Shown here in pieces: positions 53 to 58,275 of a DNA stretch of 64,000 nucleotides. The translations under genes and the position numbers were made by a program. Origin of the DNA: Escherichia coli (GTDB lineage Bacteria; Pseudomonadota; Gammaproteobacteria; Enterobacterales; Enterobacteriaceae); the NCBI RefSeq assembly GCF_003018255.1, contig NZ_CP027440.1, one strand, 5' to 3'. How positions within the stretch are numbered: the stretch's first letter is position 1; the number at the start of each line of letters is the position of its first letter. Under the pieces are notes generated by a model. The model saw nothing but the letters and a program-made list of their open reading frames with translations. It ran no database searches and had not been told where the DNA came from.

Positions 53-126
53 TGGAGCGGGCGAAGGGAATCGAACCCTCGTATAGAGCTTGGGAAGCTC
101 TCGTTCTACCATTGAACTACGCCCGC
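53..126 (-). tRNA. glyU: tRNA-Gly (anticodon CCC)
   Basis: Reverse complement reads GCGGGCGTAGTTCAATGGTAGAACGAGAGCTTCCCAAGCTCTATACGAGGGTTCGATTCCCTTCGCCCGCTCCA: acceptor stem pairs, T-arm GGTTCGATTCC, anticodon loop CTTCCCAAG, encoded CCA. Confidence 0.9.
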
Positions 127-55410: not shown

Positions 55411-55806
<396 letters not shown>

Positions 55807-55847: not shown

Positions 55848-56031
55848 ATTTCTCTGAGATGTTCGCAAGCGGGCCAGTCCCCTGAGCCGATATTTCATAC
55901 CACAAGAATGTGGCGCTCCGCGGTTGGTGAGCATGCTCGGTCCGTCCGAGAAGCCTTAAAACTGCGACGACACATTCACCTTGAACCAAGGGTTCAAGGG
56001 TTACAGCCTGCGGCGGCATCTCGGAGATTCC
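55848..56031 (+). ncRNA. ssrS: 6S RNA (RNA polymerase sigma-70 holoenzyme regulator)
   Basis: Matches my recollection of E. coli 6S RNA from ATTTCTCTGAGATGTTCGCAAGCGGGCCAG... to ...CATCTCGGAGATTCCCT; lies between zapA and fau; 3' end approximate to a few nt. Confidence 0.85.
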
Positions 56032-56105
56032 CTTCTTATCTGGCACCAGCCATGACGCAACTACCAGAACTCCCACTGACATTATCCCGACAAGAAATCC
56101 GCAAA

Positions 56106-56654
56106 ATGATTCGGCAACGTCGTCGTGCGTTAACGCCGGAACAACAGCAGGAAATGGGTCAACAAGCCGCTACCCGGATGATGACTTATCCCCCGGTGGT
56201 GATGGCACATACGGTCGCTGTATTCCTCTCTTTTGATGGCGAACTCGACACCCTGCCACTCATAGAACAACTCTGGCGCGCCGGTAAGCGCGTATATCTT
56301 CCAGTTTTGCATCCCTTCAGTGCCGGTAATTTGCTGTTCCTGAATTACCATCCGCAAAGCGAACTGGTGATGAACAGGTTGAAGATCCATGAGCCCAAAC
56401 TGGATGTGCGTGACGTGCTACCCCTTTCCCGATTAGACGTGTTGATCACACCGCTGGTCGCCTTTGATGAGTACGGTCAGCGCCTGGGAATGGGCGGTGG
56501 TTTTTATGATCGGACCTTACAAAACTGGCAGCACTATAAAATGCAACCGGTGGGTTATGCGCATGATTGTCAGTTGGTGGAAAAACTCCCCGTTGAAGAG
56601 TGGGATATCCCTCTTCCTGCGGTGGTTACACCGTCGAAAGTCTGGGAGTGGTGA
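56106..56654 (+). CDS. fau: 5-formyltetrahydrofolate cyclo-ligase
   Basis: Track ORF 55908..56654 runs through ssrS; start trimmed to MIRQRRRALTPEQ (182 aa). Confidence 0.85.
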   Translation: MIRQRRRALTPEQQQEMGQQAATRMMTYPPVVMAHTVAVFLSFDGELDTLPLIEQLWRAGKRVYLPVLHPFSAGNLLFLNYHPQSELVMNRLKIHEPKLDVRDVLPLSRLDVLITPLVAFDEYGQRLGMGGGFYDRTLQNWQHYKMQPVGYAHDCQLVEKLPVEEWDIPLPAVVTPSKVWEW

Positions 56655-56713
56655 GGGCGACACACCTGCATCGCCCTGATTGACATCGTTGATTCTTTAA
56701 CCTAATTTAGTGA

Positions 56714-56852
56714 GTAAGGGTAAGGGAGGATGACTCCTCCCCTGAGACTGACTGTTAATAAGCTGGGAAACTTATGAGTAACAGTACAATCAGTATGATG
56801 ACAAGTCGCATCATAACCCTTCTCCTTCAAGCCCTCGCTTCGGTGAGGGCTT
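56714..56852 (+). ncRNA. sibC: SibC antisense sRNA (type I antitoxin), approximate ends
   Basis: Fully overlaps ibsC on the opposite strand; candidate -35 TTGACA (56680-56685) and -10 TAATTT (56702-56707); 3' hairpin GCCCTC-gcttcggtg-AGGGCTTT at 56829-56852; length about 139 nt fits Sib RNAs. Confidence 0.55.
56754..56813 (-). CDS. ibsC: Ibs-family type I toxin, 19-aa hydrophobic peptide
   Basis: Minus-strand ORF ATGATGCGACTTGTCATCATACTGATTGTACTGTTACTCATAAGTTTCCCAGCTTATTAA = MMRLVIILIVLLLISFPAY; below the ORF-track size cutoff. Confidence 0.7.
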
Positions 56853-56995
56853 TACCGTTACAGCCCCATGCTGCCCTGCCATCGTAAATCCCCATTAAAT
56901 AAACACAACGCATTGATCTGACTTTGATTTATTTTCTGGAGCAGACTCGCAAAGTAGAATGCGCAATGCGGCAACGGTGTGGAGAAGGGATAAAA

Positions 56996-57029
56996 AAACG
57001 GGCAAGTCAGTGACCTGCCCGTTGATTTT
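56996..57029 (-). terminator. intrinsic terminator downstream of serA (T tracts on both sides)
   Basis: AACGGGCA-agtcagtgacc-TGCCCGTT hairpin flanked by AAAAAAA (minus-strand T run) and GATTTTCA. Confidence 0.55.
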
Positions 57030-57042
57030 CAGATAAGGGGAT

Positions 57043-58275
57043 TTAGTACAGCAGACGGGCGCGAATGGTACCCGGAATAGCTTTCATTGCCTGCAGCGCT
57101 TTTTCGGCAACGTCTTCGTCGGCTTCAATATCAATAACTACATAACCCATCTGGGCGGAAGTTTGCAGATATTGCGCGGCGATGTTGACGCCCTGCTCGG
57201 CAAAAATTTTGTTGAGCGCAGTCAGCACACCCGGACGGTTTTCGTGGATGTGCATCAGACGACGACCACCGTGCAGTGGCAGCGAGACTTCCGGGAAGTT
57301 CACCGCAGAGAGCGTTGAACCATTATCAGAATACTTGATCAATTTACCCGCAACTTCCAGACCGATATTCTCCTGCGCTTCCTGAGTCGAACCACCAATG
57401 TGTGGCGTCAGAAGGACATTGTCGAATTCACACAGCGGAGAGGTAAATGGATCGCTATTGGTCGCCGGTTCCGTCGGGAATACGTCGATTGCCGCCCCTG
57501 CCAGATGTTTGCTCGCCAGCGCGTCACACAGCGCTGGAATATCCACCACAGTACCGCGCGAAGCATTAATCAGCAGCGAGCCGGGCTTCATTAGCGAAAT
57601 CTCTTTCGCGCCCATCATATTTTTGGTGGACGGATTCTCTGGTACATGCAGACTCACCACATCGCTCATATTCAGCAGGTCAGAAAGATGCTGTACCTGA
57701 GTGGCGTTGCCCAGCGGCAGTTTGTTTTCAATATCATAAAAGTAAACATACATTCCCAGCGATTCAGCCAGAATGCCCAATTGCGTACCAATATGACCGT
57801 AGCCGATGATACCCAGCTTTTTGCCGCGCGCTTCAAAAGAACCCGCCGCCAGTTTGTTCCACACGCCACGATGCGCTTTAGCATTGGCTTCCGGCACGCC
57901 GCGCAATAGCAGCAGCAGTTCGCCAATCACCAGCTCCGCAACAGAGCGCGTATTTGAGAACGGTGCGTTAAATACCGGGATCCCGCGTTTTGCCGCCGCA
58001 TCCAGATCAACCTGGTTTGTTCCGATACAGAAACAGCCAATAGCGACCAGTTTTTCTGCGGCGTTGATCACGTCTTCAGTCAGATGGGTACGGGATCGCA
58101 GGCCGATGAAGTGGGCATCGCGGATGGATTCTTTTAATTGTTCATCATCCAGCGCGCCTTTGTGAAATTCGATGTTGGTGTAACCCGCTGCACGAAGGCT
58201 TTCCAGCGCCTTTTGGTGCACGCCTTCTACCAGCAGAAACTTAATCTTGTCTTTCTCCAGCGATACCTTTGCCAT
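57043..58275 (-). CDS. serA: D-3-phosphoglycerate dehydrogenase
   Basis: 410 aa; NAD-binding GIIGYGHIGTQLG; C-terminal ACT-like regulatory region. Confidence 0.95.
   Translation of the reverse strand: MAKVSLEKDKIKFLLVEGVHQKALESLRAAGYTNIEFHKGALDDEQLKESIRDAHFIGLRSRTHLTEDVINAAEKLVAIGCFCIGTNQVDLDAAAKRGIPVFNAPFSNTRSVAELVIGELLLLLRGVPEANAKAHRGVWNKLAAGSFEARGKKLGIIGYGHIGTQLGILAESLGMYVYFYDIENKLPLGNATQVQHLSDLLNMSDVVSLHVPENPSTKNMMGAKEISLMKPGSLLINASRGTVVDIPALCDALASKHLAGAAIDVFPTEPATNSDPFTSPLCEFDNVLLTPHIGGSTQEAQENIGLEVAGKLIKYSDNGSTLSAVNFPEVSLPLHGGRRLMHIHENRPGVLTALNKIFAEQGVNIAAQYLQTSAQMGYVVIDIEADEDVAEKALQAMKAIPGTIRARLLY

What the first reader, a model, noticed from the sequence alone, without database searches (positions are those of the whole stretch)
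56680..56855. Type I toxin-antitoxin pair ibsC/sibC hidden in the fau-serA intergenic region
The minus strand encodes the 19-aa hydrophobic peptide MMRLVIILIVLLLISFPAY. The plus strand has a near-consensus sigma-70 promoter (TTGACA-N16-TAATTT) and a 3' hairpin, consistent with a ~140-nt antisense RNA fully covering the toxin ORF. Neither gene is captured by the six-frame track.
Basis: partly seen in the sequence, partly recalled or inferred. Interest (0 to 1): 0.55.

Follow-up and report, generated by a model that had tools for sequence, protein, structure and literature searches.

The report
Known E. coli sibC/ibsC toxin-antitoxin

Summary
The window is E. coli. Between fau (ends 56654) and serA (57043-58275, minus strand), Rfam's SIB_RNA model scores 136.5 bits against a threshold of 56 (E 5e-28) at 56680-56830 on the plus strand. 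The minus strand at 56755-56814 encodes MMRLVIILIVLLLISFPAY behind an AAGGAG ribosome-binding site. RefSeq annotates the identical DNA as "type I toxin-antitoxin system toxin IbsC". In K-12 MG1655 the syntenic site carries sibC (b4446) and ibsC (b4665). Transferring the K-12 ends puts SibC at 56716-56856 (141 nt), which covers the whole ORF.

- The promoter spacer is 17 nt, not 16.
- The -10 hexamer TAATTT matches only 3 of 6 consensus positions, so only the -35 is consensus.
- The terminator has a weak U-tract.

The one point of mild interest is allelic. Against K-12, the peptide has S17P through a whole-codon swap (AGC to CCA). This lies in the loop of SibC's target-recognition domain TRD1. 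The 61 nt around the codon (56735-56795) are identical in 939 of 5,422 complete E. coli genomes. About a third of genomes carry two tandem copies at this site. Novelty: already known. Interest: low.

The parts
56680..56685 (+). sibC promoter -35 hexamer, TTGACA (6 of 6 consensus)
   Evidence: Read directly from the sequence. Invariant TTGAC in all five K-12 Sib paralogues. Corresponds to Rfam SIB_RNA model positions 1-6.
56703..56708 (+). sibC promoter -10 hexamer, TAATTT (3 of 6 consensus), 17-nt spacer, 7 nt before +1
   Evidence: Aligns with TAATTT, TACTTT and TAAAGT of the paralogues. Not called by the generic promoter scan. Its function is inferred from its position relative to the K-12 5' end.
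56716..56856 (+). SibC antitoxin small RNA, 141 nt (5' AAGGGUAAGGG ... CUUUACC 3')
   Evidence: Ends transferred from K-12 sibC b4446 through a gap-free alignment. The ends agree with the cloning and probe oligonucleotides of Han et al. 2010. Rfam SIB_RNA 136.5 bits. MFE -55.3 kcal/mol, z -4.9. In the family consensus fold, 10 of 42 pairs show compensatory changes.
56724..56741 (+). SibC 5' hairpin GGGAGGA-UGAC-UCCUCCC. Its complement forms the 3' hairpin of the ibsC mRNA. The loop differs from K-12 (UGAC versus UUGC).
   Evidence: Folds, alignment to K-12, coordinates.
56761..56783 (+). TRD1 (SibC +46 to +68), the target-recognition domain that pairs inside the ibsC ORF. It contains the allelic triplet UGG at 56764-56766 (K-12 has GCU).
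   Evidence: Domain limits from Han et al. 2010, mapped onto the window. Predicted to lie in a hairpin loop. This is the most variable segment among paralogues and alleles.
56814..56830 (+). TRD2 (SibC +99 to +115), which pairs with the ibsC ribosome-binding site and start codon
   Evidence: Domain limits from Han et al. 2010. Mapped. Identical to K-12 SibC, 17/17. It overlaps the SD at 56822-56827 and the ATG at 56812-56814.
56829..56852 (+). SibC terminator hairpin: 10-bp stem, UUCG loop, followed by UACC (weak U-tract)
   Evidence: Four stem pairs covary among the paralogues. Not called by the generic terminator scan.
56755..56814 (-). ibsC ORF: 19 codons plus stop, MMRLVIILIVLLLISFPAY (S17P relative to K-12)
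   Evidence: Translation. RefSeq ibsC, WP_071525914.1, on identical DNA. K-12 IbsC is MMRLVIILIVLLLISFSAY. 15 of 19 residues are hydrophobic, GRAVY 2.40.
56822..56827 (-). ibsC Shine-Dalgarno sequence AAGGAG, 7 nt upstream of the ATG
   Evidence: An AAGGA/AAGGG block is conserved upstream of all ibs paralogues.
56716..56874 (-). ibsC mRNA, about 159 nt. Ends are inferred, not measured here.
   Evidence: Han et al. 2010 mapped the ibsC 5' end by primer extension, used a 159-nt RNA, and reported an 18-nt 5' overhang beyond SibC. Mapped onto the window. MFE -63.1 kcal/mol, z -5.0.
56881..56886 (-). Putative ibsC promoter -10 hexamer, TACGAT (4 of 6), 6 nt upstream of the inferred +1
   Evidence: It aligns with GATGAT, GACGAT and AACAAT in the same columns upstream of every ibs paralogue. 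Inferred: the figure in Han et al. that marks the promoter elements could not be read.
56903..56908 (-). Putative ibsC promoter -35 hexamer, TTGTGT (3 of 6), 16-nt spacer
   Evidence: Weak, not conserved among paralogues, and not called by the generic scan. Low confidence.

Best explanation
This is the chromosomal type I toxin-antitoxin pair sibC/ibsC of E. coli, in a natural allelic form. The mechanism below is established in K-12 and inferred here from near-identity.

The minus strand makes a roughly 159-nt ibsC mRNA. Its strong AAGGAG ribosome-binding site drives synthesis of a 19-residue, almost entirely hydrophobic peptide. When overproduced, that peptide inserts in the inner membrane, collapses membrane potential and stops growth.

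The plus strand makes the 141-nt SibC RNA, transcribed from a promoter with a consensus -35 hexamer. SibC is perfectly complementary to the mRNA over all 141 nt. Pairing starts at two independent sites. TRD1 is a hairpin loop that contacts a loop inside the ORF around codons 12-19. TRD2 is a single-stranded stretch that covers the ribosome-binding site and start codon. The pairing then spreads, blocks translation and gives an RNase III substrate, so the toxin is not made.

The window's allele changes the TRD1 loop triplet (UGG in place of the GCU of K-12). Because the two genes share the same DNA, this also changes codon 17 on the other strand (Ser to Pro), so perfect complementarity is kept automatically.
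For: Shown here:
- Full-length Rfam SIB_RNA match, 136.5 bits, E 5e-28.
- Exact 19-codon ORF with an AAGGAG SD.
- Synteny zapA-ssrS-fau-[sibC/ibsC]-serA-rpiA, as in K-12.
- RefSeq annotates ibsC on 100%-identical DNA.
- The SibC transcript is 136/141 identical to K-12 sibC (b4446), and TRD2 is identical.
- The promoter differs from K-12 by one spacer base.
- Both RNAs are predicted to fold far better than shuffles, z about -5.
- The fold is shared by 10 Sib sequences, with compensatory changes in 10 of 42 pairs.
- The P17 C-terminus SFPAY is the natural C-terminus of K-12 IbsB, and IbsE has SFPTY.
- The 61 nt around codon 17 (56735-56795) are identical in 939 of 5,422 genomes.

From the literature (K-12):
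- TRD1 and TRD2 limits, cognate-only repression, RNase III cleavage of the duplex, and primer-extension mapping of the ibsC 5' end (PMC2943612).
- Membrane depolarisation within minutes of IbsC induction, psp operon induction, an alpha-helical peptide, and toxicity that needs residues 6-19 (PMC8309996).
- SibC detected by northern blot, with sigma-S RNA polymerase bound at its promoter (PMC4447067).
- SibC transcripts are NAD-capped in a way that depends on a +1 A (PMC12956327). The window keeps A at +1.
Against: No expression or toxicity data exist for this strain or this allele, so transcription, repression and toxicity of the P17 form are all inferred. Generic scans call neither the SibC promoter nor its terminator. 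The -10 hexamer is poor (3 of 6) and the U-tract is short. The review states that C-terminal residues matter for toxicity, and I could not obtain the mutagenesis paper (Mok et al. 2010) to see whether Pro at position 17 was tested in IbsC. The physiological role of chromosomal Ibs/Sib loci is still unsettled in the literature.
Confidence: 0.95

Rival explanations
1. The locus is a decayed or neutralised copy. SibC is still made, but the S17P substitution, or weak ibsC promoter elements, has made the peptide non-toxic or unexpressed, so the pair no longer works as a toxin-antitoxin system.
For: Pro replaces Ser in the C-terminal segment (residues 6-19) that the review says is needed for toxicity. 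Han et al. report that ibsA expression did not affect survival of cells lacking sibA/ibsA, so not every family member behaves as an active toxin. The putative ibsC -35 hexamer is poor.
Against: The ORF, start codon, SD and length are intact. SFPAY is the native C-terminus of K-12 IbsB, and SFPTY that of IbsE, which K-12 annotation calls 'toxic peptide IbsE'. The 61 nt around codon 17 (56735-56795) are identical in 939 of 5,422 genomes, and no frameshifts were seen in the alleles sampled. Hydrophobicity is unchanged, GRAVY 2.40 versus 2.44. The region upstream of ibsC is identical to K-12.
Confidence: 0.04
2. The plus-strand RNA mainly acts in trans. It may repress other ibs paralogues or unrelated mRNAs, or serve as an NAD-capped stationary-phase RNA with another role. 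Control of ibsC would then be secondary.
For: The window's TRD1 is closer to K-12 SibD's TRD1 (21/23) than to K-12 SibC's (20/23). Han et al. retargeted SibC to ibsD by changing the same loop triplet, and a single change at +51 was tolerated. SibC is NAD-capped and ppGpp-responsive, and sigma-S RNA polymerase binds its promoter.
Against: Full 141-nt complementarity to ibsC guarantees the cis target. Repression was cognate-specific in K-12 except for ibsA. In one genome with the identical sibC allele, the paralogue between yqiK and hldE differs from the window's TRD1 at about four positions, so the pairs stay distinct there. I know of no documented trans target.
Confidence: 0.01

Closest known systems
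sibC (b4446) / ibsC (b4665) of E. coli K-12 MG1655
   Same: Same genomic position between fau and serA, and same orientation. The intergenic region aligns without gaps at about 97% identity, and the SibC transcript is 136/141 identical. TRD2, SD, start codon, terminator and promoter hexamers are identical. The peptide is the same length, with 18 of 19 residues identical.
   Different: Codon 17 is CCA (Pro) instead of AGC (Ser). This equals SibC +49 to +51, UGG instead of GCU, in the TRD1 loop. The 5' hairpin loop is UGAC instead of UUGC. One base differs in the promoter spacer.
Fau-proximal Ibs/Sib copy of two-copy strains (for example E. coli O111 RM9322 and O157:H7 PV15-279)
   Same: Same TRD1 loop triplet and the same ...SFPAY C-terminus as the O111 fau-proximal copy (MMRLAIILIVLLLISFPAY). 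Both have full-length Rfam SIB_RNA matches.
   Different: Those strains carry a second sib/ibs unit about 392 nt further on (peptide ...SFGAY). The window has a single unit. The window's 5' hairpin loop matches the other copy of O111, so the alleles are mosaics.
SibA, SibB, SibD and SibE with IbsA, IbsB, IbsD and IbsE (K-12 paralogues, Rfam RF00113)
   Same: Same architecture: TTGAC -35, an RNA of about 136-145 nt, a fully internal antisense ORF of 18-19 codons starting MM(K/R), a C-terminal SF-x-(A/T)-Y, and the same consensus fold.
   Different: 60-78% identical to the window's SibC over the aligned transcript columns. TRD1 and TRD2 differ, which gives cognate specificity. They sit at other loci, yegL-mdtA and yqiK-hldE.
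Other type I toxin-antitoxin systems with small hydrophobic toxins (hok/Sok, tisB/IstR-1, shoB/OhsC, ldr/Rdl, zor/Orz)
   Same: A small membrane-active peptide whose mRNA is repressed by an antisense RNA (review PMC8309996).
   Different: In Ibs/Sib the antitoxin overlaps the entire toxin ORF. It does not pair only with a 5' or 3' untranslated region and is not encoded in trans. The peptide is shorter (19 aa) and lacks the C-terminal positive charges. There is no sequence similarity to those systems.

Membership tests
Sib antitoxin RNA (Rfam RF00113, SIB_RNA) | Scores above the curated gathering threshold of the family covariance model over its full length | tested here: met
   136.5 bits against a gathering score of 56, E 5.4e-28, model positions 1-147 of 147, not truncated. 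The score lies in the same range as the K-12 and other E. coli copies, 133.7-149.5 bits.
Sib antitoxin RNA (Rfam RF00113, SIB_RNA) | Shared secondary structure: closing stem P1, 5' hairpin, TRD1 hairpin, ATGATGA hairpin and terminator | tested here: met
   The MFE fold of the window RNA has the same helices as the consensus fold of 10 Sib sequences. In that consensus, 10 of 42 pairs show compensatory changes, and the window sequence keeps every pair.
Sib antitoxin RNA (Rfam RF00113, SIB_RNA) | Expressed as an abundant RNA of about 140 nt | not testable with these tools
   Shown for K-12 by northern blots (PMC2943612; PMC4447067; PMC12956327). Here there is only a promoter and terminator that match K-12 apart from one spacer base.
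Ibs type I toxin | ORF of 18-19 codons, wholly inside and antisense to a Sib gene, encoding MM(K/R)-hydrophobic core-SF-x-(A/T)-Y | tested here: met
   MMRLVIILIVLLLISFPAY at 56755-56814 on the minus strand, inside SibC at 56716-56856. Matches the pattern of IbsA-E. RefSeq names the identical ORF IbsC. Pfam and NCBIfam HMM scans could not be run, because the peptide is below those tools' minimum length.
Ibs type I toxin | Translatable: ribosome-binding site and start codon | tested here: met
   AAGGAG lies 7 nt upstream of the ATG and is conserved in the paralogues.
Ibs type I toxin | Overproduction is toxic and depolarises the membrane | not testable with these tools
   Shown for K-12 IbsC, the S17 form (review PMC8309996). 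The P17 allele was not tested. Its hydrophobicity is essentially unchanged.
sibC/ibsC orthologue specifically (rather than another paralogue) | Located between fau (ygfA) and serA, and closest in sequence to K-12 sibC, including TRD2 | tested here: met
   Synteny. Identity across the 145 aligned columns is 136 to K-12 SibC, 113 to SibD, 106 to SibE, 88 to SibA and 87 to SibB. TRD2 is 17/17 identical to K-12 SibC.
sibC/ibsC orthologue specifically (rather than another paralogue) | TRD1 identical to the K-12 SibC TRD1 that defines cognate specificity | tested here: not met
   20/23 identical to K-12 SibC, and 21/23 to K-12 SibD. The three differences are the loop triplet +49 to +51. Because the target changes with it, cis pairing is unaffected. 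This is allelic variation, not grounds to exclude orthology.

The most novel reading that the evidence does not exclude
The whole-codon swap at SibC +49 to +51 (IbsC codon 17) may be one state of a naturally hypervariable specificity barcode. Seven different codons were seen at this one position among the 12 alleles and paralogues examined, while the rest of the ibsC-locus ORF is almost invariant. That pattern could reflect selection on RNA-RNA discrimination between co-resident Sib/Ibs pairs and not on the peptide. This particular allele differs by one base at the loop triplet (two bases across TRD1) from the K-12 SibD TRD1. It might therefore cross-repress ibsD-type mRNAs, or be cross-repressed by SibD-type RNAs, in some strain backgrounds. 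Han et al. already noted that TRD1 and TRD2 lie in variable regions. What would be new is strain-level rewiring.
Probability: 0.15. Interest if true: 0.35.

Novelty: already known. Interest (0 to 1): 0.08.

Why it matters
It matters little as a discovery. The locus was described in 2008-2010, has an Rfam family, and is annotated in RefSeq and in K-12. Confirming it has three uses. It shows that the first-stage reader can pick out a 19-codon gene and its antisense RNA from raw sequence. It supplies exact coordinates for annotation pipelines that skip very short ORFs and small RNAs. It also records natural variation at this locus: a TRD1/codon-17 allele, and one versus two tandem copies. That variation could be used to study how duplicated antisense pairs stay orthogonal.

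Tried and rejected
1. The generic sigma-70 and terminator scans over 56600-57100 called neither the SibC promoter nor its terminator. They found only the serA terminator at 56997-57023 on the minus strand. I rejected this as evidence against the locus, because the scan's thresholds exclude a 3-of-6 -10 hexamer and a 3-T tail, while family alignment and the K-12 ends support both elements.

2. Fozo et al. 2008 (PMC2597788) and Mok et al. 2010 (PMC3009890) are not held in the library. The primary toxicity data and any test of residue 17 are therefore cited only through Han et al. 2010 and a 2021 review.

3. I looked for the other Sib loci of the source strain. Rfam finds only one Sib copy in the 64-kb window. 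As a proxy I used a genome that shares the identical 388-nt intergenic region (DETEC-S792). The first 49-kb fetch missed the locus. The second found a single Ibs copy between yqiK and hldE. A 24.5-kb comparison then showed that no complete E. coli genome exceeds 99.1% identity to the window, so this proxy is not the same strain.

4. I considered alternative ORFs overlapping the site: 42 aa at 56702-56830 on the minus strand and 37 aa at 56774-56887 on the plus strand. Neither has annotation or family support. I rejected both.

5. HMM scans of the peptide against Pfam and NCBIfam were not possible, because 19 aa is below the tools' minimum length.

Full report
**What is in the sequence**

The window from 56655 to 57042 is the intergenic region between two genes. 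The first is a plus-strand ORF ending at 56654 (5-formyltetrahydrofolate cyclo-ligase, fau). The second is the minus-strand serA ORF at 57043-58275. Just upstream lie zapA (55477-55806) and the 6S RNA gene ssrS (55848-56031; Rfam 139.8 bits).

At 19 codons it is below the 20-aa floor of the ORF lister and is absent from that list. It is preceded by AAGGAG (56827-56822) with a 7-nt spacer. Fifteen of the 19 residues are hydrophobic, and GRAVY is 2.40.

On the plus strand, TTGACA is at 56680-56685 and TAATTT at 56703-56708. A 10-bp hairpin with a UUCG loop lies at 56829-56852.

**Is it more than chance?**

Yes. A scan of the whole window against Rfam gave three hits above gathering thresholds. 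One of them is RF00113 SIB_RNA at 56680-56830 on the plus strand: 136.5 bits against a gathering score of 56, E 5.4e-28, covering model positions 1-147 of 147.

The Rfam model starts at the -35 hexamer and stops before the terminator. The hit coordinates are therefore not the ends of the transcript.

The 388-nt intergenic region is found in 5,425 of 5,426 complete E. coli genomes. Four of them are 100% identical. RefSeq labels the feature under the match 'ibsC: type I toxin-antitoxin system toxin IbsC' (WP_071525914.1 in strain DETEC-S792).

**Transfer of experimentally defined ends**

K-12 MG1655 has the same gene order: pepP-ygfB-zapA-ssrS-fau-sibC/ibsC-serA-rpiA. It annotates sibC (b4446, 141 nt) and ibsC (b4665).

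The two intergenic regions align without gaps, with 11 differences in 388 columns. This places SibC at window 56716-56856 and ibsC at 56755-56814. The 5' end AAGGGTAAGGG and the 3' end ...CTTTACC agree with the cloning primer AatIIC-F and the probe NPSC+141 of Han et al. 2010.

The +1 A lies 7 nt after TAATTT. The -35 is a perfect consensus, but TAATTT matches TATAAT at only 3 of 6 positions. That is why the generic promoter scan reports nothing here. The terminator stem is followed by only TTT, so the generic terminator scan misses it too. 'Near-consensus promoter' is therefore only half right.

**Structure**

The 141-nt RNA folds to -55.3 kcal/mol (shuffles average -35.5, z -4.9). It forms a closing stem, a GGGAGGA/UCCUCCC hairpin, a long hairpin whose loop holds +46 to +53, the AUGAUGA hairpin, a single-stranded stretch and the terminator. 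The complementary 159-nt ibsC mRNA folds to -63.1 kcal/mol, z -5.0.

I aligned ten Sib sequences: the window, the five K-12 paralogues, and four copies from other E. coli strains. They share this consensus fold. Ten of the 42 pairs show compensatory double changes, including four in the terminator stem, and the window sequence keeps all pairs.

**How it works**

The mechanism is established in K-12 and inferred here from near-identity.

Han et al. 2010 (PMC2943612) showed the following:
- SibC represses only its cognate ibsC.
- It uses two independent target-recognition domains. TRD1 (+46 to +68) is in the P5 loop and pairs inside the ORF. TRD2 (+99 to +115) is single-stranded and pairs with the translation-initiation region.
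- The initial contacts spread into flanking sequence.
- RNase III cleaves the duplex.
- The ibsC 5' end, mapped by primer extension, gives a 159-nt mRNA with an 18-nt 5' overhang beyond SibC.

Mapped onto the window, these features fall as follows:
- TRD1 is 56761-56783.
- TRD2 is 56814-56830, covering the SD and the ATG.
- The inferred ibsC +1 is the G at 56874.

Six nucleotides upstream of that +1 is TACGAT (56886-56881). It aligns in the same columns with GATGAT, GACGAT and AACAAT upstream of ibsA, ibsB, ibsD and ibsE. A matching -35 (TTGTGT, 56908-56903) is weak and is not conserved.

A 2021 review (PMC8309996) summarises the toxin side:
- IbsC overproduction depolarises the membrane within minutes and reduces viability within 30 minutes.
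- It induces the psp operon.
- The peptide is alpha-helical.
- Residues 6-19 are needed for toxicity.

Two further K-12 papers add regulation. Sigma-S RNA polymerase binds at the sibC promoter, and SibC is seen on northern blots (PMC4447067). SibC, SibD and SibE are largely NAD-capped in stationary phase; this depends on a +1 A and is enhanced by ppGpp and DksA (PMC12956327). The window keeps the +1 A, and its promoter differs from K-12 by one spacer base.

**How this copy differs from K-12**

Within the transcript there are five base differences.
- Two are in the loop of the 5' hairpin at 56732-56733 (UGAC versus UUGC).
- Three are consecutive, at 56764-56766. This is SibC +49 to +51, UGG versus GCU.

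On the other strand, the triplet is the whole of codon 17, CCA (Pro) instead of AGC (Ser). It lies in the TRD1 loop.

Because toxin and antitoxin are read from the same base pairs, complementarity is preserved.

The triplet is a hot spot of variation. K-12 paralogues have CAG (IbsA), CCC (IbsB), GCA (IbsD) and CCG (IbsE). Other alleles at the ibsC locus have GGA, or TTG-CCA at codons 16-17.

The window's TRD1 is 20/23 identical to K-12 SibC and 21/23 identical to K-12 SibD. Han et al. retargeted SibC to ibsD with a construct (SibC1d) that changed just this loop triplet. They also found that a single U51G change was tolerated. Cross-talk with a SibD-type partner is therefore conceivable, but it is untested.

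In DETEC-S792, a genome with the identical sibC intergenic allele, the only paralogue between yqiK and hldE has a different TRD1 (AAGCCTGGAAACTTACTAG; peptide ...SFQAY). The pairs remain distinct there.

The allele is common. The 61 nt around the codon (56735-56795) are identical in 939 of 5,422 genomes. The C-terminus SFPAY is also that of K-12 IbsB. I therefore see no reason to think the peptide is inactive, although I could not obtain the mutagenesis paper to check this.

**Copy number**

The 388-nt query gave 7,311 places in 5,425 genomes, with at most two per genome. In O111 RM9322 and O157:H7 PV15-279, the second place is a tandem second sib/ibs unit about 392 nt further on. Both units are full-length Rfam matches. 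The window, like K-12, has one unit, and Rfam finds no other Sib copy anywhere in the 64 kb.

**Comparison and verdict**

Every defining feature that can be tested in silico is met, both for the Sib RNA family and for the Ibs toxin family. Synteny, overall identity and TRD2 identify this copy as the sibC/ibsC orthologue. The only feature not met is identity of TRD1 to the K-12 allele, and that is allelic variation.

Expression and toxicity cannot be tested with these tools.

The finding is correct and precisely located, but it is a textbook locus. Novelty is 'already known' and interest is low. The residual curiosity is the hypervariable TRD1 triplet at codon 17 and what it means for orthogonality between co-resident copies.

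Noticed in passing
window 56655-57042; loci L005 546-1114 and L006 546-1115: About a third of complete E. coli genomes carry two tandem sib/ibs units between fau and serA (7,311 places in 5,425 genomes). The period is about 392 nt, with peptides ...SFPAY or ...SLPAY in one unit and ...SFGAY in the other. The window and K-12 have one unit. The alleles look mosaic: the window's 5' hairpin loop matches one O111 copy and its TRD1 matches the other. That suggests recombination between copies.
   Followed up: partly
window 56764-56766 (SibC +49 to +51; IbsC codon 17): This single codon is hypervariable among Ibs alleles and paralogues: AGC, CCA, GGA, CAG, GCA, CCC and CCG. The differences often involve all three bases, while the rest of the ibsC-locus ORF is nearly invariant. 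The codon coincides with the TRD1 loop that sets antitoxin specificity.
   Followed up: partly
window 39500-64000: The best match among 5,426 complete E. coli genomes is only 99.1% identical over 24.5 kb, and only two genomes reach 99%. The source strain is therefore not in that collection. It may be a sparsely sampled lineage or a Shigella, which that collection does not include.
   Followed up: no
window 55848-56031 (+): This is the 6S RNA gene ssrS (Rfam RF00013, 139.8 bits). It sits directly between zapA and fau, as in K-12. The mechanical ORF list extends the fau reading frame back to 55908, across ssrS. RefSeq starts fau later, at 56052 in window coordinates on strain DETEC-S792 and at 56106 in K-12.
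   Followed up: partly
window 53-126 (-): A tRNA-Gly(CCC) gene lies at the left edge of the window (ARAGORN; Rfam tRNA 71.6 bits).
   Followed up: no
window 56997-57023 (-): A strong intrinsic terminator lies just after the serA stop codon: a 12-bp stem with 7 GC pairs, followed by TTTTTAT. It is the only terminator the generic scan calls in this intergenic region.
   Followed up: no
window 56680-56830 versus 56716-56856: The Rfam SIB_RNA model spans the promoter (-36) to +115 of the RNA and omits the terminator. Annotating the small RNA from Rfam hit coordinates would therefore misplace both ends, by about 36 nt at the 5' end and 26 nt at the 3' end.
   Followed up: yes
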